The notes beneath the pieces were generated by a model that was not told the origin of the DNA, ran no database searches, and worked only from the letters and a program-made list of their open reading frames with translations. Below are positions 15,988-64,000 of a stretch of DNA of 64,000 bases, one piece after another (position 1 is the first letter of the stretch; the number at the start of each line of letters is the position of its first letter). Source of the DNA: Vicinamibacterales bacterium (lineage in GTDB: Bacteria > Acidobacteriota > Vicinamibacteria > Vicinamibacterales > UBA8438); contig CBDHGC010000004.1 of the NCBI GenBank assembly GCA_965262925.1, positions 2,385,112-2,449,111 of the forward strand, read 5' to 3'. Made by a program: the position numbers and the translations under genes.

Positions 15988-16068
15988 TCCCGTCGGACCG
16001 GGCCCCGGCTGTCCGGTTTGCCGAGGCCCGGTCCTGGTTTGCTCAGTGGTCAACGTCGTGGCCGTCGG

Positions 16069-23540: not shown

Positions 23541-23571
23541 CCGCGGGTTGGCTCGTTGGTGAGGCTGTCGA

Positions 23572-23587
23572 CCGCAACGCGTTGCGG
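23572..23587. repeat. REP-like palindrome copy 4
   Basis: CCGCAACGCGTTGCGG, in the same position relative to the autotransporter B stop as copy 3 is to A. Confidence 0.85.
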
Positions 23588-36083: not shown

Positions 36084-36183
36084 CTTGCCTCAATGATGCC
36101 CTGTTGCGTTCTGCGTACGCGGGGTGCGTTGTTCTAGTTGGTCCAGCGTCGTCAGAAAGTTGGCCTACTGGTGAGGCTGTCGA

Positions 36184-36199
36184 CCGCAACGCGTTGCGG
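36184..36199. repeat. REP-like palindrome copy 7
   Basis: CCGCAACGCGTTGCGG, downstream of the autotransporter C stop. Confidence 0.85.
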
Positions 36200-36279
36200 T
36201 CCCGTCGGACCGGGCCCCGGCTGTCTGGTTTGCCGAGGCCCGGTCGTCGTTCGGTTGGCGCTGGGAGCGGGTGCCTCCC

Positions 36280-39200
36280 TTACCACTGCACGGTTGCGCG
36301 CCCGAGGACGCGCTGGTCGGTGCTTCCGCCCTGCTCCTGCATCTGGAACAGCGGGCTCTCGCGCCGTTCGGCGTCGACCCCGAGCTGCAGGTTCAGCTTC
36401 CCCTGCTCGAGCACTTGCATGCCGTAGCCGATCCGGTAGTCGCGGCCGTACTCGGACGTGCGCACGCCGGCCCGCGGCGTCCCGACGAATCGGCTGCCGA
36501 TCGGCATCCCGTAGCCGACTTCGGTGTCGAGACGCTGGCCACCGCCGTTCATCAAGGGGTCGTGGCTGATGCCGGCCATGCTCTCCCGGCCCCACAGCGC
36601 TTCGGCGCCGCTCATCGACTCGCCGCCCCAGGCGGGGGACACCCGTGCCGTGAAGCCGAGCGGGGTAGACGGCGTCGGGTTGTAGCTGACCGAGATCGAC
36701 ATGCCGCTCTCGGCGAACCCTTCGGCCTGGTGGACCAGGAGCCTGCGCACGCGGATGTCGACCGCAAGCCCCGTCACGCCGTCCGCGAGAACGAGGCCGG
36801 CCCCGAGGTCCATCCCGCGGCCGGTTTCGGCGTCACCGCCGTCCTGGCGTATCCCGATCTCGATGCTCGGCGTCAGCGCCATCCGGCTGGCGATCGTCAT
36901 GCTCTGCGAGCCCTCGAGCGCGGTGCGCAGCCGGCTCACTGCCGCGGTGGTCGAGTCGAGGTTGCCGCCCGGTCCGCTCGCGGCCTTCGTCCGTATTCCG
37001 ACCCATAGCGTGTCCGCCTTGAATGCGAGGCCGAAGCCTTCGCCGCCGCCGAGGATCTGGCCCCGGCCCCCGCCGGCCGCCATCGCCATCGACAGCCCGG
37101 TCTCGATCGGTGCTCCAGCGCCCGGGTTGAGCATCAGCCCGCCGGCGCCGTAGCCGGCAACCGTCCAGACGGTGATGCGGTCGCTGGCCTTGTACCCGAT
37201 CCAGGGGTAAAGGCCGGTCACCGCGGAGTTGACCTGTCCGCTGTCGACGCCGGCGTACCTTCCGAGCCCCCGGCTGTGCGACAGCGACACGCCGGTGACC
37301 ATCCGGCCCTTGGAGTAGTCCGCGCCGAACATCGAGGTTCGGACGTCGCCGTTGAGCGCGAGGGCGCCGTCCTGGCCGTAGAACTGGGATTGCGCGCTCC
37401 GGCTCCAGAAGGAGAGGATCCCGCCGCTCGACGTCGCGCGGTTGAGCGCGAAGCTCGAGCCTTGCAACAGCCGGTTGCTGTCGAGGCCCATGCTCATGCC
37501 CTGGTCGTAGGACTGGCCTGGGTGCAACCCCTGCATGCTCCCGCTCGGGTTCACTCCACCGCCGATGCCGTTCTGCGGTCCGAGGCTCGATGTCATGCCG
37601 CTGTTGCCGAACCGCGGGTCGTTCCCTCCTGCGGCCGTCATCTGCCGGCCCGGTTGGCCCTGCTGCTGCCCGTATCCACCGCCGAGCTGCTGCAGGAAGT
37701 CGAGCGCGAACTGCTGTCCCATCTCGCTGTTGATCTCGCGGCCGGCGACCCGGCCGTCGAATCCTGGTGCTCGTGGCGCGTTCACGCGCTCCTCGACCTG
37801 CTCGACGATGTGCACCGCGGCGGTGCGGCCGAACCGCGCGATCAGCGCCTTGGGCAATGCGTCGTGGTTCGTGATGGTGCCCGTGGCGCTTGAGTCGGTT
37901 AGGTCGCCGCTCGACGCGTTCGACAGCGTGAGCGTGAACGTCTCGCTGCCCTCGTTGTGCTCGTCGTCGATGACGCCGACCTCGATGCTGCCTGATGAGC
38001 TTCCTGCGTCGATCGTCAGCGTGTCGCTGCTCGACGTGTAGTCAGCGCCAGCCGTCGCGGTTCCGTCGCTCGTCGCGTAGTCGACCGTTATCTGGCTGCT
38101 GGCAGCGCGGCTGAGCGCCACTGCGAACACCAGCACCGCGTTGGCGCCCTCTTCCACCTCGGCGTCGGTAATCGAGATCCCGACTGGTCCGAGGATCGTG
38201 TCCGACGTCGAGTGGCTCAGCTTGCGTCCGTCGTCTGTGCAGATGGCGCCTGAGTTGCTGCAGTTGGTCGTTTCCGGCAGCGTGATGGTGACCGCGCCGT
38301 TGTCGTCCGGATCGACCGTTACGGTCCAGTACTGGTTGCTGCCTTGGGTCTTCCGCTCGGCCTTTCGGATGTCTGCCCCGTTCTCGTCGAACGCTTGGTC
38401 ACGGATCCGTGCGTAGCCGGCGCTGACGTTCTCGCTGAAGCTCAGATCGAAGGTGAACTCGCTGCCGTCGTGCTCGGCGGGTATGTTGCTGAAGCTCGCC
38501 GTCACTGGGACGGTCGATACGTCCGGCGGCCCGGCGACCGTGGTAGAGGGGCTGTTGCTCAGCTGTACCGGGTCCTCCTCCTTGCTGCAGATTGCGCCCG
38601 TCGTTCCGCAATCGCGGTTGCCCGGGAGCGTGACCGTGACGGCGTCGTTTCCCGACGGCGTGACGGTGATTTCCCAGCTGTCGTTCTGCCCGTTGTTGCG
38701 GCGGGCGCGGGTCACGTCGCCGTTCGTGACCGTGAATGCGTGGTCCCGCATCGCCGCGTAGCCGATTGCGATCTCGCTGTTGAAGACGGCGTCGAAGCTG
38801 AATGCCGTGCTGCCGTCGTGCTCGGGCGGCACGTTCTCGAAGCTGCCGGTCAGGACCTCTGTGTTGAGGATGGTGCCCGTTGCGGTTTCGTCGCCGAGGT
38901 CGGCGCCAATAGCGTCGTACAGCAATACGTCGAATGTCTCGCCGCTGTCGTTCGCGGTGTCGTCGATGATCGGAACGGAGATGATCTTGCTGGTCTCCCC
39001 GGGCTGGAACGTCAGGGTTCCGCCTTGGTCTTGGTAGTCCACGCCGGGTGTTGCCGATACGGTGAAGAGCGTGAGGTATTTGACGGTTATCGGCCTGCTC
39101 CAGCTCCTGCTCAGCGAGACGACGAAGTCCGCCGTCGCGTCGGTGCCCTCGGTCGCCGTGGCGTCGCTGATCGAGATCAGCACCTCGGGGTTGGCGTAGC

Positions 39201-39915
39201 CCTCGACCTGCATGCGCATCGAGGTGATCGAGTCGGTGTAATTGCTGTAGGCCGACCCTTCCGGCTTGGCCAGTCCCCCGTCGCCGATTGACCAGCCTGT
39301 CGCTCCGGTTTCGCTATGCCCGGTGGCGTCCACTCTCACTTGCGTTTTGCTCTCGCCTGCCCAGAGAAACACCCAGTACTGCGTGTTTGCGTCCAGGTGC
39401 ACCGAGTCTGCGTTGAACGGCGCAGGGCGCCCGTATTTCCTCACCGTGTACTTGTTCACCCCGATGTCGGGACCTTCGAAGGTGGCCCCGTTAATCGTCG
39501 GCGTTGCGATCTGGTCCCTGTGGTTGGGGCGTCCGTTTCCGTTGTCCCCATACACGTACACGTACACCGGCTCGTGCTCGCGGCTCCTCCCTGTCAGGAA
39601 GTTGATGGAGATCGATTCGAGCTGGTACCCGCTGGCGTTCGTCCCCGTCGTGAACGGCTGAGCGAAGTCGATCTCACCCAGCCTGTAACCACTGGTGAGA
39701 CTCGGGTCACTAAGGTTGGTCACCAGGACATCGGCCGCCGCCGGTCCGGCCCCGCCGATCAACGGGACGATCACGGCGATCGTCCTGATCAGCCTTGCGG
39801 TCCCTTCTGCCCGCTGGGTGGTCGTCGACCTCAGCTTCCCAATCCATCTGCGCCTGCGGTTCGCTGTGTGTCGCTCGCGGCTCGTGCCGCCCCGTTCGGT
39901 CATTCGTGCTTCCAT
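36280..39915 (-). CDS. type Va autotransporter with Calx-beta passenger (paralog C, 1211 aa)
   Basis: Same architecture as paralog A and near-identical from about residue 250 onward. The N-terminal ~190-aa head domain is clearly diverged (DVLVTNLSDPSLTSGYRLGEIDFAQPFTTGTNASGYQLESISINF… versus DVLVSNLGQIRTGIDESLAGQSYAMPFTTGTNGTGYILESISIDF…). Confidence 0.85.
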   Translation of the reverse strand: MEARMTERGGTSRERHTANRRRRWIGKLRSTTTQRAEGTARLIRTIAVIVPLIGGAGPAAADVLVTNLSDPSLTSGYRLGEIDFAQPFTTGTNASGYQLESISINFLTGRSREHEPVYVYVYGDNGNGRPNHRDQIATPTINGATFEGPDIGVNKYTVRKYGRPAPFNADSVHLDANTQYWVFLWAGESKTQVRVDATGHSETGATGWSIGDGGLAKPEGSAYSNYTDSITSMRMQVEGYANPEVLISISDATATEGTDATADFVVSLSRSWSRPITVKYLTLFTVSATPGVDYQDQGGTLTFQPGETSKIISVPIIDDTANDSGETFDVLLYDAIGADLGDETATGTILNTEVLTGSFENVPPEHDGSTAFSFDAVFNSEIAIGYAAMRDHAFTVTNGDVTRARRNNGQNDSWEITVTPSGNDAVTVTLPGNRDCGTTGAICSKEEDPVQLSNSPSTTVAGPPDVSTVPVTASFSNIPAEHDGSEFTFDLSFSENVSAGYARIRDQAFDENGADIRKAERKTQGSNQYWTVTVDPDDNGAVTITLPETTNCSNSGAICTDDGRKLSHSTSDTILGPVGISITDAEVEEGANAVLVFAVALSRAASSQITVDYATSDGTATAGADYTSSSDTLTIDAGSSSGSIEVGVIDDEHNEGSETFTLTLSNASSGDLTDSSATGTITNHDALPKALIARFGRTAAVHIVEQVEERVNAPRAPGFDGRVAGREINSEMGQQFALDFLQQLGGGYGQQQGQPGRQMTAAGGNDPRFGNSGMTSSLGPQNGIGGGVNPSGSMQGLHPGQSYDQGMSMGLDSNRLLQGSSFALNRATSSGGILSFWSRSAQSQFYGQDGALALNGDVRTSMFGADYSKGRMVTGVSLSHSRGLGRYAGVDSGQVNSAVTGLYPWIGYKASDRITVWTVAGYGAGGLMLNPGAGAPIETGLSMAMAAGGGRGQILGGGEGFGLAFKADTLWVGIRTKAASGPGGNLDSTTAAVSRLRTALEGSQSMTIASRMALTPSIEIGIRQDGGDAETGRGMDLGAGLVLADGVTGLAVDIRVRRLLVHQAEGFAESGMSISVSYNPTPSTPLGFTARVSPAWGGESMSGAEALWGRESMAGISHDPLMNGGGQRLDTEVGYGMPIGSRFVGTPRAGVRTSEYGRDYRIGYGMQVLEQGKLNLQLGVDAERRESPLFQMQEQGGSTDQRVLGRATVQW

Positions 39916-40167
39916 GTTGTTTCCTCCGTCCTGCGTCTGGTTGTTTCGACGGCCGGCGCGTGTAGCTTCGCCCCTCGTGGTTGGTTTCCTCTTTCCCGGC
40001 CCTGCGGTCGGGCTCGGTTTCGTGCTCTCTGCTGGGTCCCCCTCGTGTTTTTGGTTTCCTCCAGGTTCGGCGCCCTTTAGATGCGCCCCTCGTAGTTGCT
40101 CCTGTGTTCGACGGTCTTGTGCTCCGAAACCGTGTCGTGTCCTTTGCGCGGTGGGCGGATCGCTCCC

Positions 40168-41157
40168 TCATTCGGCTGTCTTTGCGTCGTTTTGGTCCCT
40201 GCGATCCCCGCTTGGTCTTCTGTTTCCACTGGGCGGCATGCCGCTCGTCGTCCCGATTTGTTCCTGGGCGGATTGCCCTTTGGCTTGGTGTAGGACCCAG
40301 TCCCGGAACGCTCGCACCTGGGGTTTCCGTATGGCTGCCGGCGCCGTGACCAGCACGTACCGGGCCGGCGCGGTGACCCGGGCGTCGAACAGTGAGACCA
40401 GCGTTCGTTGTTCGAGCTCCCGGGCGATCATCAGTGAGTGGCCGAGGGCGACGCCCATCCCGTCGACCGCGGCTTGAACCATCATGCTGTAGAGCCGGAA
40501 ACCCGACGCCTGCGACAGGTCCGCGTCCTTGGCGCCCTGGTGCGCGAACCAGTGTGACCAATAGGTTTTCCAGTGCAGGTCGTACAGCAGCGGCCAGCCG
40601 TGCAGGTCCGCCGGCTCCCGGGGCTGTCCCTGCACCTTCAGGAACGCCGGGCTGCACACCGGGAGCAGCGTCTCCTCGAACAGCGTCTCGACGTGCAGTG
40701 TCTCGGCGACCCGGTCGGTGAAGGCGATCCAGACGTCGAAGTCCCGCCGCTCCGGGTCGACCTCGCGGTGGTCGGTCTCGAACTCTATGGAGATGTCCGG
40801 GTGGGCGGCCCTGAAGTCGGCGAGCCGCGGCATCAGCCACTTCTCGGCCACGACCTCGACCGCGACGAGTTTCAGATGCGTCGCGTTGGCGTGCTCGCGG
40901 TGCTGTTCGGTCGCGGTGCTCAGCTCCGCAAAGATCCGTTGGATCTCCCCGGCGTACTCTCGGCCGCGTACGTTCAGCCGCACGCCGCGGGCGTGGCGCG
41001 AGAACAGCTGGGCGCCGATGTGCGTCTCCAGCGCCTGGACGCGGTGCGAGATTGTCGCCGCCGTCACGCCAAGCTCTTCTCCGGCCCGGACGAAGCTGTC
41101 GTGTCGGGCGGCCGCCTCGAAGGCACGTATGGATTCAAGGGGAGGCAGCTCGGGCAT
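40168..41157 (-). CDS. LysR-family transcriptional regulator (copy 2)
   Basis: Differs from copy 1 at only a few residues (for example GEELGVTAATISHRVQALETHIGAQLF). ATG at 41157. The longer track ORF is trimmed as for copy 1. Confidence 0.85.
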   Translation of the reverse strand: MPELPPLESIRAFEAAARHDSFVRAGEELGVTAATISHRVQALETHIGAQLFSRHARGVRLNVRGREYAGEIQRIFAELSTATEQHREHANATHLKLVAVEVVAEKWLMPRLADFRAAHPDISIEFETDHREVDPERRDFDVWIAFTDRVAETLHVETLFEETLLPVCSPAFLKVQGQPREPADLHGWPLLYDLHWKTYWSHWFAHQGAKDADLSQASGFRLYSMMVQAAVDGMGVALGHSLMIARELEQRTLVSLFDARVTAPARYVLVTAPAAIRKPQVRAFRDWVLHQAKGQSAQEQIGTTSGMPPSGNRRPSGDRRDQNDAKTAE

Positions 41158-41696
41158 CCGTTCTCCTCGCTGAACAGCGTTGTCGGGTTCCGGCCGTGAG
41201 GGGTGGCGCCGTTGGCGCCAGACGCTTGGCGGTTCTCGGACGTGTTTCTGCTGACATGCCGCTGAACGTGTGCGTGCCGCTGGCAGGCCATCGTGAACGT
41301 CTGAAGCTGTGGGGGCATTATCCGAGTGACCCGCGTCCTCTCGCAACCACATATATTCGTAGTCTCAGACCACAAACGTCCGTGGGCTGCTGCGTTCTAC
41401 TTGTTACTTCGAAGCTACTCTCGTCTCGGGATCGGGCACACCGGGAGCTTCCTGCTGCGCTGAGTTCGTTGGGTCCGACGAAGTGGTGGCAGGCGAGTTT
41501 CGTCTTCCGCCTGCGTTGGCTTGGGTGTTCCGGGGCTGGCGGTGTTGGCGATGTCGACCGCGTCCAGGGTTCTCGTGATCCGCGACCGCGGATTCTCTCT
41601 CAACGGCGTTGCGTTGTACGTCGGCGTTGACGACCACACGGCCGCGAAGGCGCTGCGCTGGTTTCGCTCGCGCTGACCGCGGGCTGGCGCTGTCGA

Positions 41697-50042: not shown

Positions 50043-52135
50043 GGGTTAACCCAAGTTTACCAACCACAAAACTAAACCAATTTAGAATCAGTGGTTTACG
50101 CCGACAGAAATGCCCGAGTGGCACTACAAACGCGCACAAACCGGGGGGCGGTCGGTCAGACGAGCGTCTTGCGGACGCCGCCGGGGTGTGGGTCGACGCC
50201 GAGCGCGTCGTAGATGGCCCGCTGATCGAGTTCGGCTTGGGTTGCCGTGCGCACATGCAGCGTGCGTCCGTCGGGACGGCGGAAGGTGGCGGTGACGCGC
50301 TGCTGGCCTTCGAGGACGCGGCGTAGCGTGGTCCACCTGGCGTGTTCGCCGTGCGCGCGCAGCCGAGTGCGGATGACCTGCACAAGCTGGTAGGCGATGA
50401 CGGTGATGAACAGGTGGCCGTCGGCCCGCGCCGGCTTGCGGTGGTAGATCGGGCGCAGGCCGAGTTCGGACTTGAGCGAGCGGAAGACGGCCTCGACGTC
50501 GGTGAGCGTGGTGTAGGTGCGCCACAAGGCGTCTTCGTCCCAGTCGGTCTCGCTGCTGCGCAGGCAGTAGACGCCCGGATGGGTAACCATCGAGCCGTCC
50601 TGGGGGCGGCGGGTCCAGGTGACGGCAACGGCCTGGTCGCCGGCCTCGTTGGCGGTGACGCTGATCTGGTAGTGCGCGGCGACGCGGGAATGCTTGGCTT
50701 TCAGCCGTCCGATGCGTTGCCAGACCTGGTCGAGCCGCTTGTGCGCGCGGGGACGCGACAGCCCGTCGTTGAGCTTCGTCAGGGCGGTCTCGAAGCGGGA
50801 GGCGAAACGCTCGACGATGCCCCGCTCCTTCTCGGCCCGCTCCTCGGAGTAGCAGTACAGGCGCACTTCGTCGGGGTCGGTCGAGACCACCTTGTGCATG
50901 TGCACGGTCTGGTCCGACTGCGTCTGGAGCGACACGGCGGCATCGGCATCGAAGCGGCGGTGGCGTTCGCGGCTGACCACCAGATAGCGGTAGCCGTTGT
51001 CGCGCAACCAAGTCACACAGGCGTCGGTGGCGACACCGCGGTCCATCACCACCAGGGCGCCGACCGGCGCCTCCAGTGCTTCGAGCATCCCGGCCAGCGT
51101 CCGGTGTTCGCGGACGTTGCCGGCGAAGACCTTCGAGCGGCGCACGAAGCCGCTGGCATCGAGCATCAGGCCCAGGGTCAGCAGCGGGCAGTCGCTGCGC
51201 TTCTCCTTCGAGTGCCCGCGTTGGGCCTGCGGCTGGTCGCTCGCCTCGCCCTCGAAGTAGGTGTTGGTCAGGTCGTAGAGCGTCACCGTCGGCTGCAGGT
51301 CGAACAGCCCCATCGCGCGGTCGAACAGGTGCTCCTCGATCGCCTCGCGATGCTTCACCAGCACGTCCGAGGCGCGGTAGAGCTGCATCGCCCCGACGGT
51401 CTCGAAGTCGACGCCGAGCAACTCCCCGAGACCGCTGCGCTGCTGCAGCCAGCGGTGCGTCGCGCGCTCCGAGGCGGGCGCGGCCAGACGCCCGACGATG
51501 GCGCCGGTGGCCGCGCTGCGCAGGGCGCCGTTGACGCCCAACCGGGTCAGCAGTGCCGGCAGGTCCAGTTGCTCGAGCGCCCACAGGCCGACCTGCTCCA
51601 CGCCGACGCTGCGGGGGCGGACCAGCCGCAACGAGTCGACGTCGACCGGCTGCACATCGGTCGGTCCGGCGGTCGGCGCAGCCGCGCCGCGGGCGATCAG
51701 CTGCGCCGCGATCCGTTGCGCTTCCTCCTCCACGGCAGGCGGACAATCGGCCACCAGCGGCGCCTGACCGCTCAACGCATCGTTGATGCGGGCGCACAGC
51801 AGTGGCCAGTCCGTCTGGGGAATATCGAAATGGCGACCGAGGTTGAGGAGGGTGCGCTGGCGCACGCTGCTGCCGAGGCGTTCGGCGTGCACGAGGCGAT
51901 GAGAGAAGTAGGGTCTTCCGTCCTCGGTCCGCCGGGTTTGGGTGCGCCGAATGAACATGTCGCCCACCATAGCGGACGCACCCTGCCCCATGCAAGCATT
52001 CTTTTACGATTATGGCACTACATTTATCTCTGACAAAACCCGATCCTTTATAATCAACAAGTTACAGGCCCCGCACTCCCCGAAAACCGCCCAAATCCGC
52101 AAAACGACCGCCAATCTTGGTAAAGATGGGTTAAC
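50043..52135 (-). mobile_element. IS1634-family (IS4-superfamily) insertion sequence (about 2.1 kb)
   Basis: Terminal inverted repeats GGGTTAACCCAAGTTTACCAA (50043-) and TTGGTAAAGATGGGTTAAC (-52135). It encloses a single large transposase gene. Confidence 0.8.
50156..51991 (-). CDS. IS1634-family transposase
   Basis: …MFIRRTQTRRTEDGRPYFSHRLVHAERLGSSVRQRTLLNLG…TLYDLTNTYFEG…GHSKEKRSDCPLLTLGLMLDASGF…VVMDRGVAT…YRYLVVSRE…LGLRPIYHRKPARADGHLFITVIAYQLV. The true start may be the internal MFIRR (51958). Confidence 0.9.
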   Translation of the reverse strand: MGQGASAMVGDMFIRRTQTRRTEDGRPYFSHRLVHAERLGSSVRQRTLLNLGRHFDIPQTDWPLLCARINDALSGQAPLVADCPPAVEEEAQRIAAQLIARGAAAPTAGPTDVQPVDVDSLRLVRPRSVGVEQVGLWALEQLDLPALLTRLGVNGALRSAATGAIVGRLAAPASERATHRWLQQRSGLGELLGVDFETVGAMQLYRASDVLVKHREAIEEHLFDRAMGLFDLQPTVTLYDLTNTYFEGEASDQPQAQRGHSKEKRSDCPLLTLGLMLDASGFVRRSKVFAGNVREHRTLAGMLEALEAPVGALVVMDRGVATDACVTWLRDNGYRYLVVSRERHRRFDADAAVSLQTQSDQTVHMHKVVSTDPDEVRLYCYSEERAEKERGIVERFASRFETALTKLNDGLSRPRAHKRLDQVWQRIGRLKAKHSRVAAHYQISVTANEAGDQAVAVTWTRRPQDGSMVTHPGVYCLRSSETDWDEDALWRTYTTLTDVEAVFRSLKSELGLRPIYHRKPARADGHLFITVIAYQLVQVIRTRLRAHGEHARWTTLRRVLEGQQRVTATFRRPDGRTLHVRTATQAELDQRAIYDALGVDPHPGGVRKTLV

Positions 52136-52676: not shown

Positions 52677-53051
52677 TCACAGGACGCTCACTCCTTCGCG
52701 TTCGACCACCTGGTGAAAGTCGGCTTTCCACTCACCGAGCTCGGTCCACTCGCTCTCGGTATGGGTCAGCACCACCGGCAGCGAGTCGGGCGCGCCGGGT
52801 AGCTCGTCGCTCAGGGCCTCAATGGCCTCCCCGCTTGCTTTAGCCTCGTCGCTGATGATGACGAGGATGTCGATGTCGCTCTCGGCATGCCAGTCGCCCC
52901 GCGCCTTCGATCCGAAGAGCAGCGCTCTGCGCACCACGTGCGCGTAGTCGCGCCGGATCGCTTCGACGAACGCCTCGAGCCACGCCTTCTCCGGCGTGGG
53001 CCATTCGCTCGACAGCGCTCTGACCTGTGCCGGAATTGTCCTGCCCTTCAA
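52677..53051 (-). CDS. MNT-type (minimal) nucleotidyltransferase domain protein
   Basis: TTG at 53051. …LLFGSKARGDWHAESDIDILVIISDE… is the GSxARGxxxxxSDIDLLV pol-beta NTase signature. No HEPN partner is visible. Confidence 0.6.
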   Translation of the reverse strand: MKGRTIPAQVRALSSEWPTPEKAWLEAFVEAIRRDYAHVVRRALLFGSKARGDWHAESDIDILVIISDEAKASGEAIEALSDELPGAPDSLPVVLTHTESEWTELGEWKADFHQVVEREGVSVL

Positions 53052-53284: not shown

Positions 53285-53613
53285 GTGTCCGTCCCCGCGC
53301 TCGCGGGGCGCGTGACGCGCTTCCCGCCGCGCGCTCAGACATGACCGGTGGATCCCCGCGTGTGCGGGGAAGCCATCGTCGTCGTCGTCGTGGTGTTCGG
53401 GGGTCCATCCCCGCGCGCGCGGGGCAGCCGGAGGCGGGGACTCTACCCCGCCTTGGTGGTCGGGTCCATCCCCGCGCGCGCGGGGCAGCCCACGGGAAGC
53501 CCTGCCGGTGGCGTGGCACGCGCGGTCGCTCCCCGCTGGCGCGGGGCGGAGGTCGCCGGAGGCGAGGCGCGGCCACAGCGGCTCGGGTCGATCCCCGCTC
53601 TGGCGGGGTCCTC
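53285..53613 (-). CRISPR. degenerate orphan CRISPR array, type I-E-like repeat, 6 repeats
   Basis: 29-nt repeats start at 53285, 53346, 53401, 53462, 53523 and 53585. The period is 61-62 nt except for one 55-nt interval. Two copies are identical (GGGTCCATCCCCGCGCGCGCGGGGCAGCC) and four are decayed. The minus-strand form GGCTGCCCCGCGCGCGCGGGGATGGACCC has the I-E-type CCCCGC-N-GCGGGGA stem. Spacers are 32, 26, 32, 32 and 33 nt and unrelated to each other. There are no cas genes in the window. Confidence 0.75.
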
Positions 53614-53976
53614 GGTGACCCGGGACGGTGCTCGTCTGTCGGCCCATTCCAGCCGTTGCGGGTCACTTCATTGTGGTATCCGCCGGCCGAGCAGGCGTGC
53701 TTCCACTTCCGCGCGCCCGCCCTCCTTGAGGTCGTTCGCGCTTGGCGGCGGCGCTTGGCCCTGCGTGTCGACGACGGCGCGGCCACGGCGGCGCCGTCGG
53801 CCCCGGCGGAACCCCTGGCGCCCCTGGTCTCGCGCAGACTGCCCCGCGCATGCGGGGGTGCGCGGATGACCTCCTCCGGCGGGGCCATTCTGGTCGCACG
53901 TCTTCCCGCCAGGGCGCTTGCCTTTCGCTGTGGCCAGGCGATCGTCGCCCGCCCGCGTCCCCTTCGTTGATTCGGG

Positions 53977-54993
53977 TTACCGATTGCGTTTGCGCGGCGG
54001 CGTCTCGCGCCGCCGGCTCTCGTCGAACGCCTGCTGGGCGCTTCTTGGCCTTGGGGTCGGCGCTGCCATCTGCACCCCTGCTGGCCTCGCTCCCATGTCC
54101 ACGATCGTCACCGTCTCGTTGCGCTCCATGCCGGATCGGACGCTCTCCAGCAATTGTCCGACCGGCTGGCTCTCGGCCTCGAAGAACCCTTTCAGCCCCC
54201 GCTCCTCGAGCACTTTCCCGAGCTCGGCTGTCGAGCCGCACGTCCGTTGCCACTCCCCCAGCCTGCTCTCGGTCGTTATGCTCGCCGTCTTTCCCTTGCA
54301 TCGGATCTGGACCCGCTGGTAGGTGGCGTCGGCGATGGCCTTCTGGCCTGCAGCGGCCGGGTCCTTGACGATGTCGGCGAAGGTCGGTCGGACGTTCCGG
54401 AGTTCCCTGCTTGCTTGGTCCTTGAGTTCGTCTGATATGACGCCGTACATGCGGGTGATTGCGCCCCGGCGTTCGGCGTCCTGGGCGTTGACGGCCGCCT
54501 CCAGAGCGCGCGGTTCGATGCGCGCGCACACGGCCACGTCGAAGACGTCGCGCACCGGCGCGTTCAGTCCGCGGTGGGTCAGCTTCGCCGTCATGATCTG
54601 TGTCGAGGTCAGAACCTCGGCTGGCCGCCCGTTGACGCTGCTGTGTTCGACTCCCTTGGCGGGCGTCGGTTGGCTGAAGCCGACGTCGACGTGCTCTTCC
54701 TGCGGCCGGTCCGGGAACTCGATCCGGTCGAATCCGGGTCCCTGGACCCGGTATCCACCGCTCTGCTCGGCCGCGCGGTCCAGCGCGCTGCGCGCCGCGT
54801 CCGGATTGTCCGTCGGGATCACGACGTCGATGTCGAGGCTCTCGCGGTGGTCCCAGCGCGCTTCGAGCACGCCGCCGCCGCCGACGTGCAGCGGCAGGCC
54901 GGCACGCTGCGTCTCGCCTTCGAGTCCGGCGCGCACGCGGTCGTAGAGCGCCTTTGGCGTTCCGTGCAGCTCCAGTTCCTTGTCCTTGTTCAT
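53977..54993 (-). CDS. AbiEii/DUF1814-like nucleotidyltransferase with extended C-terminal domain
   Basis: ATG at 54993 overlaps the upstream stop (ATGA). …LHVGGGGVLEARWDHRESLDIDVVIP… resembles the GGTAL…R.S.DIDF NTase motif, and …QIMTAKLTHRGLNAPVRDVFDVAV… resembles the EKL.AL..R…RDLYDL helix. The large upstream part of the 707-aa track ORF is rejected. Confidence 0.55.
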   Translation of the reverse strand: MNKDKELELHGTPKALYDRVRAGLEGETQRAGLPLHVGGGGVLEARWDHRESLDIDVVIPTDNPDAARSALDRAAEQSGGYRVQGPGFDRIEFPDRPQEEHVDVGFSQPTPAKGVEHSSVNGRPAEVLTSTQIMTAKLTHRGLNAPVRDVFDVAVCARIEPRALEAAVNAQDAERRGAITRMYGVISDELKDQASRELRNVRPTFADIVKDPAAAGQKAIADATYQRVQIRCKGKTASITTESRLGEWQRTCGSTAELGKVLEERGLKGFFEAESQPVGQLLESVRSGMERNETVTIVDMGARPAGVQMAAPTPRPRSAQQAFDESRRRETPPRKRNR

Positions 54994-55601
54994 ACCTGGC
55001 TCCGCCCGTTCAGTCGGTCGCAGTTCGGGTAGTGCCCCAGCCGTTGGACGTGCACGGCCTTGGCCAGCTGCCGCCATGTGTAGACCCCTTCGAAGATGCC
55101 GTACCACCACTCGAGCAGGGTCGCTTCGCGCAGCCAGGCGGCGATCACGCACGCCCGGCGTGCCGTTCGTCGCTTCGCCCGCACGGCGTCGTAGAACTCG
55201 GCGGCCCTCGGCGGTCGTTTCCACCCTGCGCCAGCCAGTGCCAGCCGGTGCGTGACGGCCTGGCTCTGGCGCCCGGTCTGCGCCTCGGGGACCTCGTATC
55301 TCCACTGGCGCCGCATCGCCGCCGTCACCTCGCGGTCGCTGAATGCGCTTGATGGCCCGAGCCACGCTGGCTCGGCATCGCGGTGCGTCTCGCGCTTGTA
55401 CTCGGTGCGGTATTCCGCCCACTCGTTGAGCGTCATGCGGCGGGTGCGCCGTGCCAGTCGCCGTGCTTCGGCCGCAATCGGGTTCATTGCTCCTTCTTCG
55501 GTCGGTGCTGGCCGCCGCGGCCTGCGGCCGTCTGTTGCGGTTGACGAAACGCAGCTCGTAGTGCCGCGGTCCTCTCCCGCTTCGGCGGCGTTTGTGGTCA
55601 T
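54990..55601 (-). CDS. hypothetical protein, middle gene of the coupled three-gene operon
   Basis: Track ORF. The start ATG overlaps the upstream stop and the stop overlaps the downstream NTase ATG. Trp/Arg-rich helical sequence (…MTLNEWAEYRTEYKRETHRDAEPAWLGP…AAWLREATLLEWWYGIFEGVYTWRQLAKAV…). No motif recognised. Confidence 0.45.
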   Translation of the reverse strand: MTTNAAEAGEDRGTTSCVSSTATDGRRPRRPAPTEEGAMNPIAAEARRLARRTRRMTLNEWAEYRTEYKRETHRDAEPAWLGPSSAFSDREVTAAMRRQWRYEVPEAQTGRQSQAVTHRLALAGAGWKRPPRAAEFYDAVRAKRRTARRACVIAAWLREATLLEWWYGIFEGVYTWRQLAKAVHVQRLGHYPNCDRLNGRSQV

Positions 55602-56011
55602 CCTGATCCCAATGGATTCTTGTCGGTGGGCCCATTCCCGTCAACACGGGGCCGGTGGCACGGTCTGTGTCTTTCGGAGATCGACGGCGGGATGCTGCGG
55701 CTACGGCCCGTGCTGCCGCTCTCTGGATCGCCTTGCGCTGTTGGCGGACGTTCCGGCTTCGCCTCCATCCCCGAGTGCGCGGAGCGGCGCTGACCCTCCG
55801 CGTCCGGGCACGCCCGCAGGTCGAGCACCAGGAAGCGTTCCATGGCTTTTGCGGTGGCCGCCGCCCATTGGAAGCTCGCCAGCGGGACTTCGCCATCCGA
55901 GCTCCGCACGCGGAGCCGCGGCAGCTCGACCTGCCGCCCGCCGAGTGCTCGCACAGGGCCAGGAGCCGCTGAGTCAGGGCGACCGAGGAAAGCTCGCTCA
56001 CGCACGAACAT
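55598..56011 (-). CDS. hypothetical protein, first gene of the coupled three-gene operon
   Basis: ATG at 56011. Good third-position bias (MFVRERAFLGRPDSAAPGPVRALGGRQVELPRLRVRSSDGEVPLASFQWAAATAKAMERFLVLDLRACPDAEG…). The stop overlaps the next ATG. Confidence 0.4.
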   Translation of the reverse strand: MFVRERAFLGRPDSAAPGPVRALGGRQVELPRLRVRSSDGEVPLASFQWAAATAKAMERFLVLDLRACPDAEGQRRSAHSGMEAKPERPPTAQGDPESGSTGRSRSIPPSISERHRPCHRPRVDGNGPTDKNPLGSG

Positions 56012-56177
56012 CGTGCCCCGAAAGTTGGCGGGCGGGCCGGCGACGAATGTGGCTGATGTGGCGCGCGGCCAGCCCGCCCCGCCCGCGTGACGACGATCAA
56101 CCAAGACGCCTTGAGCGGCCAGAGTCTTTACCAGGGGTCCCAGGCCGAGTTGAACGGAATCGCCCAAGTCACGCGGC

Positions 56178-56624
56178 CTACATGTCCACGCGGCCCTGCA
56201 ACTGCGCCCCGTCGGCCATGACCAACCGCGGAGCCGAGACCGCACCTTCGACCGAGCCGGTCTCACCGATGCGCACCCGCTCGCTCGCCTGGATGTTCCC
56301 GCTCACGTCGCCGAGAACCACAACCGACTTCGCCGACAACTGCGCCTTGACCCTGCCGGTTGGTCCGACCGTCAGGGCATGTTGCCGCAGCTCGATCGTC
56401 CCGTCGACCTTGCCGTCGATGACGAGGTCCTCGCTTCCCTCTACGTCGCCCTTGATGACGATCCCTCTCCCTATCGTGGTGATGTCCTCGGGAGCGTTCT
56501 GCACGCCGGCACGCTGCCCGCGCGGCGCAGACCGACGGTTGACCGATGCATCATCGTCAGCAAATTGTGTCTCGACCATTTGAAGTGACCCTCGATTCGT
56601 CTCGCGGTCCGGGAGACCGTTCAT
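56178..56624 (-). CDS. bactofilin (DUF583) family protein
   Basis: …IGRGIVIKGDVEGSEDLVIDGKVDGTIELRQHALTVGPTGRVKAQLSAKSVVVLGDVSGNIQASERVRIGETGSVEGAVSAPRLVMADGAQLQGRVDM is the repeated beta-helical G-x-V/I-x-G pattern of bactofilins. The ATG overlaps the stop of the upstream micro-ORF. Confidence 0.8.
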   Translation of the reverse strand: MNGLPDRETNRGSLQMVETQFADDDASVNRRSAPRGQRAGVQNAPEDITTIGRGIVIKGDVEGSEDLVIDGKVDGTIELRQHALTVGPTGRVKAQLSAKSVVVLGDVSGNIQASERVRIGETGSVEGAVSAPRLVMADGAQLQGRVDM

Positions 56625-58462: not shown

Positions 58463-59593
58463 CTAACCGTCGAGGATCTCGTCCATCTTCGCGGCGGCTT
58501 CCCGCTGTAGCACCGGTACAACGTGCGCGTAGGTGTTCAGCGTCAGGCTGATCTGCGAGTGCCCGAGGGTTTCCATGATGGTCCGCGGGTCGACGCCCTG
58601 CGCGAGCAGCAGCGTGGCCGCCGTGTGCCGCAGGTCGTGGTACCGAATGGCCGGCAGCCCGGCCCGCTGCAGGATCGCCTTGAACGATCGGTTGACGTTG
58701 CAGCCATCGAGCGGCGCTCCGGCCTCGCTGGTGAACACGAGTCCGTAGTCGTTCCATCGCTACCCGGCGACGAGCCGCTCCTGGAGCTGGCGCGTTCGAT
58801 GCTTGCGCAGGGCCGCCGTCACGATGCGCGGCAACACAATCGTTCGGCGACCGCGGGCCGACTTCGGTTCTCCGAACCGTGGTTGTTTCCCGCCGCGTTC
58901 CAGCGTCTGGCGCACCGACAGCGTGCCGGCGTCCAGCTTCACCGCATCCCAAGGCAGACCCAGCGCCTCACCGAGGCGCAGACCGAGTCCGACGGCTACG
59001 GTAAACAAGGCTTCGAGCCGATGGTCCGCAACGGCTGCGAGGAACTTCTCGGTCTGCTCCGGTGTCAATGGCGCAATCTCGCGCGCCCGATACCGGGGCG
59101 GTTCGGTCAGGGACGCTACGTTCCGCGAGACGAGTCCCCACTTGAGGGCCTGGTTCAGTGCCGCGCGAAGGACCGCGCGTGCGTAGTGGATCGTGCGGCC
59201 GCCAACCCCCGCCGCACGGCGAGACTCGAGCCACGTGCTCACGTCCAGCGGTGTGAGCTTGGCGAGCCGCACGCGGCCGATCCCCGGTTCCAGATGAATG
59301 CGCACGACCTGCTCGTAGCTCTTGTGAGTACGAGGCCGGAGTTGGCTACGGATGATCTCAAAGCCAACGGCGCAGGAAAGCACCCACCGTCTCCTGTTCG
59401 GGGACTGGCGGTAGCCCCTTCTCGGTCCGATGCAGCGTCTCTCGCAGCTTGTCCTGAACCTCTCGCTTCGTCCGACCGTAGAGCGTCTTGCGGCGACGCT
59501 TGCCGTCCTGCCAGCCGAGATCGACACGGGCCATCCATCGTCCGTCCGCTCGCCTCGTTATGCTGCCTTCACCGCGTCCGCGGCGCGTTGCCA
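58463..59593 (-). pseudogene. int: tyrosine recombinase (phage-type integrase), inactivated
   Basis: N-terminus MATRRGRGEGSITRRADGRWMARVDLGWQDGKRRRKTLYGRTKREVQDKL… A frame change occurs near 59355-59365. Core-binding region …RPRTHKSYEQVVRIHLEPGIG… An in-frame TAG lies at 58757-58759 (…ERLVAG*RWNDYGLVFT…). The catalytic end is …RYHDLRHTAATLLLAQGVDPRTIMETLGHSQISLTLNTYAHV. Confidence 0.8.
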
Positions 59594-60592: not shown

Positions 60593-61165
60593 TCAGGACA
60601 TCCGGCCGGCCGGCGTGATCGCACGCCTGGTGTCGCTCGTCGCGGCCGTCGGCCGCATCGCCAGATCCAGCAGCTCGTCGATCCGCGTCACGTAGTCGAT
60701 GGCGACTGCGCACCGGAGGTCGTCACCGAGCTCTTCGACATGCTTCCGGTTCTGCCGCGGGAGGATGACGCGGGCCAAGCCACAACAGTGTGCGGCCAGC
60801 ACCTTCTCGCTGATGCCGCCGACCGGCAGGATCTGCCCGGAGAGGGTGACCTCGCCGGTCATGGCCAGGTCGCCGCGGACCACGCGCCCCGTCAGCGCGG
60901 ACACCATCGCGGCCACCATCGCGACCCCGGCCGAGGCCCCGTCCTTGCGCGCCGCGCGTGACTGCACGTGGACATGAATGTCGGCGCCGCGATGGAAGCG
61001 CGGGTCGATGCCGTACCGCGCCGCGTTGGCCCGCACCCACGACAGCGCCACCCGCGCCGACTCCTGCATCCCCTCTCCGAGCCCGCCGGTCAGGGTCAGC
61101 GCGCCGGTGCCGGGCATGCGGCTGACTTCGACGAACAGGACGTTGCCGCCGACCACCGTGGTTAG
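60593..61165 (-). CDS. Lon (S16) proteolytic domain segment of the multi-AAA+ Lon locus
   Basis: LTTVVGGNVLFVEVSRMPGTGALTLTGGLGEGMQESARVALSWVRANA…RKDGASAGVAMVAAMVSALTG…MTGEVTLSGQILPVGGISEKVLAAHCCG… The catalytic Ser (DGxSAG) and Lys (GGIxEKxLAA) contexts are present. This segment is offset by one nucleotide from the upstream AAA+ segment at about 61163. Confidence 0.8.
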   Translation of the reverse strand, partial: LTTVVGGNVLFVEVSRMPGTGALTLTGGLGEGMQESARVALSWVRANAARYGIDPRFHRGADIHVHVQSRAARKDGASAGVAMVAAMVSALTGRVVRGDLAMTGEVTLSGQILPVGGISEKVLAAHCCGLARVILPRQNRKHVEELGDDLRCAVAIDYVTRIDELLDLAMRPTAATSDTRRAITPAGRMS

Positions 61166-62163
61166 CCTAGGGCGACACCCAGCCGACCGGTGCGGGCGGC
61201 GATCTCCGCCTTGCGATGTGACGGCGGCCCCAGCGTCCCGGCGAGGAGCTCCGGCGTGACATCGACCGGCGCCTCGTCCCCCTCGGCCCGGCGGCGCACC
61301 ACCTTGGCGCAGACCGTGGCCAGCGCATCGGCCAGGTCCCACACCCCCGCTCCCCGCGTGTAGCCGCTGATCACGGCCTCCATTGCTTCCTCGGTAACCT
61401 GGACCTGATCGGCGGTCAGGCCGTGGTGCGCGAGCTGCCAAGGCAGCAGGTACCGTGTCGCGATGACGCCCTTGTCCGCATCGGTGTAGCCGGGCAGCTC
61501 GATCACCGTCATCGTTTCCCGCAGCACCGCCGGCACCGAACCGAGGCTGTTGGCCGTGGCCACGAAGAGCGCCTCGGCCAAGTCGAACGGCAGGTCGACA
61601 TAGCGGTCACGGAACGCCGCACCCGGCGCCGGGGCGATGGCCTCGAGCAGCGCCGCCGCCGCGCCGCTCCCTCCGTCGAGACGGTCGACCTCGTCGAGGA
61701 CGAACATCGGATTGCGGACGCCGACACGCCGCAACTCGTCGACGATCCGCCCCGGCGGGCCCGAAGGGATGCCGTGCACCGCCGCCGCACCGTTGAGCTC
61801 GCCGCAGGCCACCCATGCGCGGGCGCGCCCGAGGGCCACGGCAAGCAGCCGCGCCAGCGACGTCTTGCCCACTCCCCCCGGCCCCACCAGGCAGAGCAGC
61901 GGCGCCGTCGCATGCGGCTTCGTCAAGCGCACGGCGATGTAGTCGACGAGGCGCTCCTTCACCGCTTCGTGTCCGGCATGCCCCGCGTCGAGGACCGTCC
62001 TGGCGCGCGCGAGATCGAGCGGCGCGGCGGAGTGCTTGGTCCACGGCAGGCTCGCCAGGCACCGCAGGTACTCGCGCGCCCGCGCACGTTCGGGATCGGT
62101 CCGCGGCCACGTGGCCAGCCGCTCGAGGACCTCCCGCCCCCGCTCCCGCACGACGTCCGGCAT
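61162..62163 (-). CDS. Lon-type AAA+ module 3
   Basis: …YLRCLASLPWTKHS…LDAGHAGHEAVKERLVDYIAV…LLCLVGPGGVGKTSLA…NPMFVLDEVDRL…ALLEAIAP…FRDRYVDLPFDLAEALFVATAN…ELPGYTDADKGVIA… is the complete Lon A-domain pattern. The frame stays open upstream to about 62215, where it meets module 2 in another frame. Confidence 0.8.
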   Translation of the reverse strand: MPDVVRERGREVLERLATWPRTDPERARAREYLRCLASLPWTKHSAAPLDLARARTVLDAGHAGHEAVKERLVDYIAVRLTKPHATAPLLCLVGPGGVGKTSLARLLAVALGRARAWVACGELNGAAAVHGIPSGPPGRIVDELRRVGVRNPMFVLDEVDRLDGGSGAAAALLEAIAPAPGAAFRDRYVDLPFDLAEALFVATANSLGSVPAVLRETMTVIELPGYTDADKGVIATRYLLPWQLAHHGLTADQVQVTEEAMEAVISGYTRGAGVWDLADALATVCAKVVRRRAEGDEAPVDVTPELLAGTLGPPSHRKAEIAARTGRLGVALG

Positions 62164-62209
62164 CCCGGGCGCGTCGACCTGTTCGCGGAGACGGTCGAGA
62201 CTGCGCCGC

Positions 62210-64000
<1,791 letters not shown>

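What the first reader, a model, noticed from the sequence alone, without database searches (positions are those of the whole stretch)
53977..56011. Three-gene translationally coupled operon ending in an AbiEii-like nucleotidyltransferase with unrecognised partners
Genes 55598-56011, 54990-55601 and 53977-54993 overlap by ATGA at both junctions.

The last protein has the pol-beta NTase signature of the AbiEii/DUF1814 toxin family (GGGG.LEARWDHRESLDIDVV, …TAKL…RDVFDV). It also has a C-terminal extension of about 130 residues. The two upstream proteins (137 and 203 aa; the second is Trp/Arg-rich) do not look like the AbiEi wHTH antitoxin.

The operon lies between a bactofilin operon and an orphan CRISPR plus MNT nucleotidyltransferase, within an integrase-marked islet. 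That is typical defence-island context. I infer a variant three-component toxin-antitoxin or abortive-infection module.
Basis: partly seen in the sequence, partly recalled or inferred. Interest (0 to 1): 0.65.

Follow-up and report, generated by a model that had tools for sequence, protein, structure and literature searches.

The report
Two-gene MenT/AbiEii-like toxin module, new partner
The reported three-gene operon is really a conserved two-gene cassette: an AbiEii/MenT-type nucleotidyltransferase (a predicted growth-arresting toxin) preceded by a small basic protein from an undescribed family with no known fold, and in several bacteria the cassette sits between CRISPR-type repeats.

Summary
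The nucleotidyltransferase call holds. Gene C (53977-54993, minus strand, 338 aa) passes Pfam's own cut-off for AbiEii and keeps the DUF1814/MenT catalytic residues.

The operon has two genes, not three. Gene B starts at ATG 55487 (165 aa), not at 55601. "Gene A" (55598-56011) is not a gene. It has no homologue and was not called by the gene predictor. It crosses a homology breakpoint at 55670, and it overlies a promoter-like site, a degenerate CRISPR-type repeat and a 31-nt scrap of a phosphoesterase gene.

B lies directly upstream of C in all 15 independent loci examined, and the two proteins diverge together (r = 0.99). B belongs to a family of about 200 cluster representatives with no Pfam, NCBIfam, PADLOC or PHROG match. 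Its confident model (pLDDT 93.6) has no Foldseek match in PDB or BFVD, so it is not AbiEi.

Best reading: a MenAT/AbiE-like toxin-antitoxin pair with a new antitoxin family. Neutralisation would be by binding, possibly by inducing Ser52 auto-phosphorylation. This mechanism is inferred, not shown.

Unexpected extra: in four or five lineages the cassette is bracketed by type I-E-like CRISPR repeats in the same orientation.

The parts
53977..54993 (-). Gene C: 338-aa DUF1814/AbiEii/MenT-like nucleotidyltransferase, the predicted toxin. Domains: NTase lobe 1-128, helical lobe 130-223, extra alpha/beta domain 227-301, disordered basic tail 307-338. Key residues: S52, D54, D103, K137, R148, D149, D152.
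   Evidence: Pfam PF08843 at 27.7 bits, above the 22.5 cut-off. 38 of 44 family members hit PF08843. K137, R148 and D152 are invariant; S52, D54 and D103 are at least 90% conserved. AF2 model pLDDT 89.2. Foldseek matches ANT(2'')-Ia, JHP933 and MenT1. S52/D54 align with MenT1 T39/D41.
54990..55487 (-). Gene B: 165-aa, very basic (pI 10.8), all-alpha protein of an undescribed family. It is the predicted cognate antitoxin or regulator. Its stop overlaps C's start by 4 nt.
   Evidence: The start is fixed by homologues and by the exact-sequence look-up. 199 cluster representatives match at E<=1e-3. No family match. AF2 pLDDT 93.6. No Foldseek match in PDB or BFVD. Always directly upstream of C.
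55488..55670 (-). Leader of the cassette. It is 100% identical to L010/L011 up to 55670 and contains the only sigma-70-like promoter match in 53700-56300, at 55644-55616 (TTGACG-17-AAGAAT).
   Evidence: The leader folds unusually well (z = -3.4), but leaders of homologous loci do not, so no conserved RNA element is inferred.
55598..56011 (-). The ORF overlies the promoter-like site, a degenerate CRISPR-type repeat and a phosphoesterase-gene scrap.
55764..55790 (-). Degenerate CRISPR-type repeat upstream of the cassette (about 18 of 21 core positions match the array repeat).
   Evidence: Weak nhmmer hit, E = 0.6, plus reading of the sequence. A well-preserved repeat lies at the equivalent side in L010 (9255), L007 (5371) and L026 (4340, 4400).
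55801..55831 (-). 31-nt remnant (30/31 identical) of the Metallophos phosphoesterase gene that lies upstream of B-C in L010/L011. In ORF A's frame it reads LVLDLRACP.
53837..53865 (-). Solitary CRISPR-type palindromic repeat (core 53842-53857) 120 nt downstream of C's stop. Its 3' handle is degenerate.
53285..53613 (-). Degenerate type I-E-like CRISPR array: 6 repeats of 29 nt with a period of about 61 nt, in the same orientation as B-C. No cas genes were detected in the window.
   Evidence: Spurious long ORFs overlie it.
52677..53051 (-). Context: MNT-type minimal nucleotidyltransferase (PF01909/PF18765) with no HEPN partner detected, lying after the array. In L007 an MNT-HEPN pair lies between repeats just after B-C.

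Best explanation
The unit is a 1.7-kb, two-gene, translationally coupled cassette (B then C) with its own promoter-like leader. It is a toxin-antitoxin-type module of the DUF1814 (AbiEii/MenT) kind.

**C, the predicted toxin.** C is a pol-beta-fold nucleotidyltransferase. By analogy with MenT1, MenT3 and AbiEii, it would add nucleotides to tRNA 3' acceptor ends and so stop translation.

**B, the predicted antitoxin.** B is encoded first and overlaps C by ATGA. It belongs to a previously undescribed all-alpha, strongly basic family unrelated to AbiEi. The most likely mode of neutralisation is direct binding to C. That binding may push the conserved active-site-loop Ser52 towards bound NTP so that C phosphorylates and inactivates itself, as shown for the structurally unrelated antitoxins MenA1, MenA3 and AbiEi. 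B's positive charge makes DNA or RNA binding, and hence autoregulation, plausible as well.

**Shown here:** gene structure, family membership of C, conservation of its catalytic and phospho-acceptor residues, strict B-C linkage and co-divergence, and lack of any known family or fold for B.

**Inferred:** toxicity, tRNA as target, B as neutraliser, and the phosphorylation step.
For: **C is a DUF1814-type NTase**
- It passes Pfam's AbiEii gathering score, and so do most relatives.
- Invariant or near-invariant residues in the 44-sequence family are G38-G40, S52, D54, D103, K137, R148, D149 and D152.
- These correspond to MenT1 T39/D41/K137/D152 and MenT3 S78/D80/K189/D211 (PMC11375011, PMC7450476). 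The profile alignment to MenT1 places S52 on T39 and D54 on D41.
- The predicted structure matches JHP933 and MenT1.

**B and C form one unit**
- B is immediately upstream of C in all 15 independent locus groups, including those fetched through B alone.
- Only B and C are shared between locus groups.
- Pairwise identities of B and of C correlate at r = 0.99.
- The cassette occurs at 99.5% identity in different flanking contexts, and as several variants in single genomes.

**The gene order fits**
- Antitoxin-first order with an overlap is the AbiE/MenAT layout (PMC7450476).
- Unrelated antitoxins acting on DUF1814 toxins by induced auto-phosphorylation are documented (PMC11375011; bioRxiv 10.64898/2026.01.19.700257).
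Against: - No experiment exists: toxicity, neutralisation and B-C binding are all untested, and no complex model could be run.
- The charge pattern is unusual for a toxin-antitoxin pair. The presumed antitoxin is very basic (pI 10.8), while the folded part of the presumed toxin is acidic (pI 5.7).
- The best structural matches of C are antibiotic nucleotidyltransferases, ANT(2'')-Ia, with only moderate TM-scores of 0.54-0.59.
- PADLOC's models do not recognise C.
- Between the window and L009, C shows many amino-acid changes (34 non-synonymous against 18 synonymous codon differences). L009's copy also has D56N. Some copies may therefore be decaying.
Confidence: 0.6

Rival explanations
1. The roles are reversed, as in MntA-HepT. 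Here the acidic nucleotidyltransferase C would be the antitoxin, neutralising the basic all-alpha protein B (the toxin) by nucleotidylating it.
For: The charge pattern fits: B has pI 10.8 and the C core pI 5.7. B has an R-x6-H spacing (R139...H146) in a helix, loosely like the HEPN Rx4-6H motif. MNT and HEPN genes sit next to the module in L007. Polyadenylylation of HepT by MntA is established (PMC7641770).
Against: C matches the DUF1814 toxin family, not the MNT family PF01909. Neither R139 nor H146 is among the at-least-90%-conserved columns of the 81-sequence B alignment. B's confident model finds no HEPN or any other structure by Foldseek. In HEPN-MNT modules the NTase gene comes first; here it comes second.
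Confidence: 0.1
2. The pair is not a toxin-antitoxin system. It would be a two-subunit enzyme or an enzyme-plus-regulator pair, for example a small-molecule (antibiotic-type) or RNA-end nucleotidyltransferase with a specificity or DNA-binding partner, carried on mobile DNA.
For: The top Foldseek matches are ANT(2'')-Ia and LnuA. C carries an extra conserved alpha/beta domain (227-301) that MenT1, JHP933 and ANT lack. DUF1814 proteins are not always toxins (PMC7450476 notes that some are not linked to antitoxins).
Against: At sequence level the motifs are those of DUF1814, including the motif IV (RDxxD) described as unique to that family (PMC7450476). No Pfam aminoglycoside or lincosamide NTase family is matched. 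The tight two-gene overlap, the multiple copies per genome and the transposase-rich contexts are typical of addiction modules.
Confidence: 0.15
3. One reading: a three-component operon A-B-C in which A (55598-56011) is a real third protein.
For: ATGA is present at 55598-55601. ORF A's frame has a mildly coding-like GC3 in 55680-55950.
Against: No homologue of A exists in any other locus. A is not called by the gene predictor and is not in the protein collection. Identity to the near-identical copies ends inside it at 55670. The promoter-like site for B-C lies inside its 3' end. The coding-like composition is explained by a Metallophos gene scrap in the same frame. B's true start is 114 nt downstream of the supposed junction.
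Confidence: 0.03

Closest known systems
MenAT1 (MenA1-MenT1, Rv0078B-Rv0078A) of Mycobacterium tuberculosis
   Same: Both have a minimal DUF1814 NTase toxin and an antitoxin unrelated to AbiEi, encoded upstream. The catalytic and phospho-acceptor residues correspond: C S52/D54/K137/D152 against MenT1 T39/D41/K137/D152 (PMC11375011). MenT1 is among the best structural matches.
   Different: B is 165 aa with about nine helices and is strongly basic. MenA1 is described only as a much shorter, unrelated antitoxin that binds MenT1 through a single extended helix (PMC7450476, PMC11375011). B's model finds nothing in PDB, which holds the MenAT1 complex. C has an extra alpha/beta domain and a basic tail. 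Sequence similarity to MenT1 is marginal (E = 0.089).
AbiE (AbiEi-AbiEii) and MenAT3/MenAT4 (COG5340-DUF1814 modules)
   Same: Both have a PF08843 NTase, an antitoxin-first bicistronic layout with overlapping genes, and a conserved Ser two residues before the first catalytic Asp.
   Different: The partner is not an AbiEi/COG5340 wHTH protein. PADLOC's models match nothing here. MenT3 and MenT4 are not among the listed structural matches.
JHP933 (jhp0932/jhp0933) of Helicobacter pylori
   Same: A DUF1814-like NTase with a small overlapping upstream gene in a toxin-antitoxin-like arrangement (PMC7450476). It is a structural match at E = 2.6e-4.
   Different: No sequence-level relationship was detected here. 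The partner was not compared because no sequence was at hand.
CreTA (CRISPR-repressed toxin-antitoxin) and ectopic CRISPR repeats
   Same: Degenerate CRISPR-type repeats lie next to a toxin module, away from cas genes.
   Different: CreT toxins are mostly small RNAs, and CreA's pseudo-spacer matches the toxin promoter. Here the module encodes two proteins with its own antitoxin candidate, and no spacer matches the module beyond 12 nt.

Membership tests
DUF1814 / AbiEii / MenT nucleotidyltransferase toxins (Pfam PF08843) | Match to the family profile above the curated cut-off | tested here: met
   27.7 bits against a cut-off of 22.5, E = 3e-6. 38 of 44 relatives match, best E = 1.9e-8.
DUF1814 / AbiEii / MenT nucleotidyltransferase toxins (Pfam PF08843) | Four motifs: pol-beta motifs I and II (GG...[S/T]xDxD plus a downstream Asp), motif III Lys, and the family-specific motif IV RDxxD (PMC7450476) | tested here: met
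   G38-G40, S52, D54 and D103 are at least 90% conserved; K137, R148 and D152 are invariant. The alignment to MenT1 places S52/D54 on T39/D41.
DUF1814 / AbiEii / MenT nucleotidyltransferase toxins (Pfam PF08843) | NTase fold resembling solved members (MenT1, JHP933) | tested here: met
   Foldseek: JHP933 E = 2.6e-4, MenT1 8an5 E = 5.6e-4, probability 1.00, but TM-scores are only 0.43-0.51 normalised by target.
DUF1814 / AbiEii / MenT nucleotidyltransferase toxins (Pfam PF08843) | Growth inhibition through nucleotide addition to tRNA acceptor stems | not testable with these tools
   Needs toxicity assays and tRNA sequencing.
AbiE type IV/VII toxin-antitoxin system (AbiEi + AbiEii) | Upstream AbiEi/COG5340 antitoxin with an N-terminal winged helix-turn-helix | tested here: not met
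   B and 53 relatives give no AbiEi family hit in Pfam. Nothing in NCBIfam. No structural match.
AbiE type IV/VII toxin-antitoxin system (AbiEi + AbiEii) | Recognition by defence-system models | tested here: not met
   No PADLOC hit for A, B or C at E<=1.
AbiE type IV/VII toxin-antitoxin system (AbiEi + AbiEii) | Abortive-infection phenotype against phage | not testable with these tools
   Needs phage challenge.
MenAT-type regulation (antitoxin-induced toxin auto-phosphorylation) | Ser or Thr two residues before the first catalytic Asp in the active-site loop | tested here: met
   S52-x-D54 is at least 90% conserved and aligns with MenT1 T39-x-D41 (PMC11375011).
MenAT-type regulation (antitoxin-induced toxin auto-phosphorylation) | Phosphorylated toxin formed only in the presence of the antitoxin | not testable with these tools
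   Needs co-expression and intact-mass measurement.
HEPN-MNT (HepT-MntA) modules | Minimal MNT NTase (PF01909) paired with a HEPN protein carrying Rx4-6H | tested here: not met
   C hits PF08843, not PF01909. B has no HEPN hit or fold. Neither R139 nor H146 reaches 90% conservation in the 81-sequence alignment.
   Only B and C are shared among locus groups. A is not called and is absent elsewhere.
CreTA-like CRISPR-regulated toxin modules | A repeat-flanked pseudo-spacer partly complementary to the toxin promoter, plus cas genes nearby | tested here: not met
   The longest spacer-to-module match is 12 nt, with no pattern. No cas domains were found among the window proteins scanned (not exhaustive).
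Type I-E-like CRISPR array (for the flanking repeats) | 29-nt partly palindromic repeats with a period of about 61 nt and unique spacers | tested here: met
   Rfam CRISPR-DR hits are only below threshold. The resemblance to the E. coli I-E repeat is from memory.

The most novel reading that the evidence does not exclude
The B-C cassette, and the MNT-HEPN pair in L007, may be carried as oversized 'spacers' inside type I-E-type CRISPR arrays. Each would be bracketed by repeats in the same orientation.

Three functional readings follow:
- The toxin modules are co-transcribed with the array and cut out at the repeats by Cas6e-type processing.
- They act as addiction modules that protect arrays from repeat-repeat deletion.
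- They move between arrays by repeat-mediated recombination.

A further speculation concerns the Metallophos phosphoesterases seen near some cassettes. They could be the phosphatases that re-activate the phosphorylated toxin.
Probability: 0.15. Interest if true: 0.8.

Novelty: new variant of a known kind. Interest (0 to 1): 0.5.

Why it matters
DUF1814 toxins (AbiEii, MenT) are a widespread family of translation-blocking nucleotidyltransferases. Recent work argues that structurally unrelated antitoxins all act by making the toxin phosphorylate itself.

This module adds a third, unrelated partner family: about 200 cluster representatives, a confident model, and no known fold. It is strictly linked to a distinct NTase subclade that keeps the phospho-acceptor serine. 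It is therefore a clean test of whether induced auto-phosphorylation is general. It could also yield a new toxin-binding fold.

The nesting of protein toxin-antitoxin cassettes between CRISPR repeats was not found described in the papers searched. If it proves functional, it would link the biology of CRISPR arrays with that of addiction modules.

Tried and rejected
- **Gene A as a real gene: rejected.**
- **B starting at 55601 (203 aa): rejected.**
- **Family searches for B and C.** PADLOC, NCBIfam and PHROGs gave nothing useful. Single-sequence PDB searches gave nothing either.
- **A conserved structured RNA in the leader: rejected.** The window leader folds well (z = -3.4). Leaders of eight homologous loci do not, with z between -2.2 and +1.3. 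Rfam finds nothing.
- **Operator-like inverted repeats in the leader.** Only short, weak ones were found.
- **CreTA-like self-targeting by neighbouring spacers: not supported.**
- **Metallophos phosphoesterase as a conserved third component: not supported.** It lies within 4 kb in only three locus groups (L002, L004-6, L010/11), at varying positions, plus a 31-nt scrap in the window.
- **B as a divergent HEPN domain: rejected.**
- **A conserved 218-nt element upstream of B-C in L004/L007 as a CRISPR leader: rejected.** It encodes the C-terminal helix-turn-helix of a recombinase-like ORF on the other strand.
- **Wider sampling through public collections.**
  - The genome collection gave one locus, a Vicinamibacterales MAG.
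  - The metagenome collection gave two loci.
  - Viral contigs gave none.
- **Source organism: not identified.** Rhodopirellula-type transposase and PSD/PSCyt neighbours hint at Planctomycetota for some loci.
Full report
**1. What is in the sequence**

The window is 66.6% G+C, so long ORFs occur in many frames and ORF length alone means little.

Three minus-strand ORFs match the finding's coordinates.
- C (53977-54993) has a clear coding signature: GC at codon positions 1/2/3 is 0.71/0.49/0.85.
- B is coding-like mainly from about 55440 downwards.
- ORF A (55598-56011) is weak, at 0.72/0.61/0.73.

The ATGA at the B/C junction (54990-54993) is real. The ATGA at 55598-55601 is also present in the letters, but neither reading frame at that junction stands up, as shown below.

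**2. Gene C is an AbiEii/MenT-type nucleotidyltransferase**

*Family membership*
- C scores 27.7 bits against Pfam PF08843 (AbiEii), above the curated cut-off of 22.5.
- 38 of 44 relatives hit the same model.
- C is not recognised by PADLOC, NCBIfam or PHROGs.
- Relatives are few and unnamed: 17 were found with the single sequence and 60 with a profile.

*Conserved residues*
- In a 44-sequence alignment K137, R148 and D152 are invariant.
- G38-G40, S52, D54, D103 and D149 are at least 90% conserved.
- These are the four DUF1814 motifs described by Cai et al. (PMC7450476).
- They correspond to MenT1 T39/D41/K137/D152 and MenT3 S78/D80/K189/D211 (PMC11375011, PMC7450476).
- A profile search of PDB sequences gives MenT1 as the best match, though only marginally (E = 0.089). 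It aligns 'RlSrDiD' of the family with 'RFTRDVD' of MenT1, placing S52 on the phospho-acceptor T39.

*Predicted structure*
- The AlphaFold model is confident (pLDDT 89.2, pTM 0.85).
- It shows an NTase lobe (1-128), a helical lobe (130-223), an additional alpha/beta domain (227-301) and a disordered basic tail (307-338).
- Foldseek against PDB returns ANT(2'')-Ia (E = 7e-6), JHP933 (2.6e-4), MenT1 (5.6e-4) and LnuA.
- Each match covers at most 229 columns, so none accounts for the extra domain.
- That domain is conserved in homologues, including distant ones that are also linked to B.

**3. Gene B is 165 aa and belongs to an undescribed family**

*Start codon*
- Homologous loci encode a 161-165-aa protein directly upstream of the NTase.
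- The L002 homologue (50% identity) aligns from the same Met.
- The exact 165-aa sequence is in the public collection on 14 contigs. The 203-aa version is absent.
- L009 is 95% identical in DNA and loses similarity 78 nt upstream of ATG 55487.
- AAGGAG lies just upstream of this ATG.

*Family and fold*
- An exhaustive HMMER search of 1.84 billion cluster representatives found 199 relatives at E<=1e-3, mostly 140-200 aa.
- Neither B nor 53 relatives match any Pfam family consistently. A profile search finds nothing in PDB sequences.
- The model built from 81 sequences is very confident (pLDDT 93.6, pTM 0.88) and all-alpha.
- Foldseek finds nothing with E below 2 in PDB or BFVD.
- B is strongly basic (pI 10.8; 27 Arg, 8 Trp), while C's folded part is acidic (pI 5.7).

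**4. 'Gene A' is not a gene**

- Its exact product, in either length, is not in the 15-billion-protein collection.
- The gene caller left a 690-nt gap there in contig L012, which has the same context.
- No other locus has a homologue. Only its last 23 codons match elsewhere, because they lie inside the shared cassette.
- Identity to the 99.5%-identical copies in L010/L011 runs from 53972 to 55670 and stops there, in the middle of ORF A.
- The only sigma-70-like promoter match in 53700-56300 (TTGACG-17-AAGAAT, 55644-55616; 0.0 expected) lies inside ORF A's 3' end and inside the conserved cassette.
- ORF A also overlies two scraps:
  - a 31-nt fragment (55801-55831, 30/31 identical) of the Metallophos phosphoesterase gene that precedes B-C in L010/L011. 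In A's frame it reads LVLDLRACP, which explains the mildly coding-like composition;
  - a degenerate CRISPR-type repeat at 55764-55790.

**5. B and C form a strict pair**

- In 15 independent locus groups B is immediately followed by C. The groups are the window/L012, L010-11, L009, L001, L002-3, L004-6, L007, L008, L013-15, L016, L017, L018-25, L026, L027 and L028.
- This includes the loci fetched through B alone.
- In L008 the two are fused by an apparent frameshift in a 3x-coverage contig.
- An all-against-all comparison shows that only B and C are shared across groups.
- Pairwise identities of B and of C correlate at r = 0.99.
- The cassette is found in different flanks at 99.5% identity. 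Several sequence variants occur within single large genomes of 8.5 and 11.4 Mb.
- Named or recognisable hosts include a Vicinamibacterales MAG and a locus with Planctomycete-type PSD/PSCyt genes. No relative was found in viral contigs.

**6. Mechanism**

What the families are known to do:
- MenT1 and MenT3 add pyrimidines to tRNA 3' ends (PMC11375011, citing the earlier MenT studies).
- MenT1, MenT3 and AbiEii are switched off when their antitoxins induce auto-phosphorylation of the loop Ser/Thr. Those antitoxins are structurally unrelated to one another (PMC11375011; bioRxiv 10.64898/2026.01.19.700257).

C keeps that serine and all catalytic residues. B sits in the antitoxin position. I therefore read B-C as a MenAT/AbiE-like module with a new antitoxin family. 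B would bind C and perhaps trigger S52 phosphorylation. Its charge suggests nucleic-acid binding, possibly for autoregulation. None of these steps is shown here.

Rivals considered:
- Reversed roles, as in MntA-HepT, suggested by the charge pattern.
- A non-toxic enzyme-partner pair, suggested by the ANT(2'') matches and the extra domain.
- The three-gene model, which the evidence contradicts.

**7. Unexpected context: CRISPR-type repeats bracket the cassette**

- The pattern CCCCGC-N4-GCGGGG occurs 7 times in the window, all within 53293-53857, against 0.07 expected.
- Six of these form a 29-nt repeat array with a period of about 61 nt. One is solitary, 120 nt after C's stop.
- The same repeat type, always oriented like B-C, flanks the cassette elsewhere:
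  - L026: two repeats, then B-C, then an array of at least seven repeats.
  - L007: a repeat, B-C, two repeats, MNT-HEPN, then further repeats and an array.
  - L010: a repeat, B-C, two inserted IS elements, then repeats.
  - L004/L008: repeats upstream only.
- Ten locus groups have no such repeats.
- The repeat-bearing loci are not each other's closest relatives. Either the association is old and was lost several times, or cassettes have landed in arrays repeatedly.
- No spacer matches the module beyond 12 nt, so a CreTA-type circuit is not supported.
- No cas domains were seen among the window proteins scanned.
- Rfam gives only sub-threshold CRISPR-DR hits, on the B-C strand.
- Searches of the held literature found elements that target CRISPR arrays, but no description of protein toxin-antitoxin cassettes between repeats.

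**8. Verdict**

- The module is a new variant of a known kind. Interest is moderate and would rise if the CRISPR-repeat nesting proves functional.

Noticed in passing
window 53285-53865 and 55764-55790; L026:4340-6740; L007:5371-9500; L010:9255 and 14854-15186; L004:3930-5066: Type I-E-like CRISPR repeats, all oriented like B-C, bracket the B-C cassette in several divergent loci. In L007 they also bracket an MNT-HEPN pair. The arrays are degenerate, and no cas genes were seen nearby.
   Followed up: partly
L010:7568-8898; L002:7488-8198; L004:986-1645; window 55801-55831 and 21392-21853: Related Metallophos (calcineurin-like) phosphoesterase genes of 200-240 aa lie near B-C in three locus groups. 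A 31-nt scrap of one lies just upstream of the window's cassette, and an intact homologue sits 32 kb away. This could be shared island content, or speculatively a phosphatase acting on the phosphorylated toxin.
   Followed up: partly
window 58463-59527 and 60593-63934: A tyrosine integrase and a Lon-type protease are each split into two or three ORFs. L012 shows the same split. They are either pseudogenes or assembly frameshifts.
   Followed up: no
window 15957-21316 and 36169-41519; also 23332-24847: A segmental duplication of about 5.4 kb at 92-94% identity carries a 1170-aa Calx-beta protein and a LysR regulator. There is a third partial copy at 86-89% identity.
   Followed up: no
window 50156-51991, 5971-7293, 8854-11174, 27634-28548: The window holds many insertion-sequence transposases (DDE_Tnp_1, IS21-type with IstB, Rhodopirellula-type ISAZ013). 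In L010 two IS elements sit exactly after C's stop, with a 5-bp overlap of the flanks (53972-53976) consistent with a target-site duplication.
   Followed up: partly
L009:8001-9017 (protein P0002): This 90%-identical copy of C has D56N in the DxD motif. It shows more non-synonymous than synonymous codon differences from the window's C (34 against 18), which suggests relaxed or diversifying selection.
   Followed up: no
L007:5065-5282 and 8518-8735; L004:5110-5379: A roughly 220-nt element is duplicated in L007 and conserved upstream of B-C in L004. It encodes the C-terminal helix-turn-helix of a recombinase-like ORF on the opposite strand.
   Followed up: partly
window 52677-53051: An MNT-type nucleotidyltransferase with no detectable HEPN partner. 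The 91-aa ORF downstream has no Pfam match, and an IS follows.
   Followed up: partly
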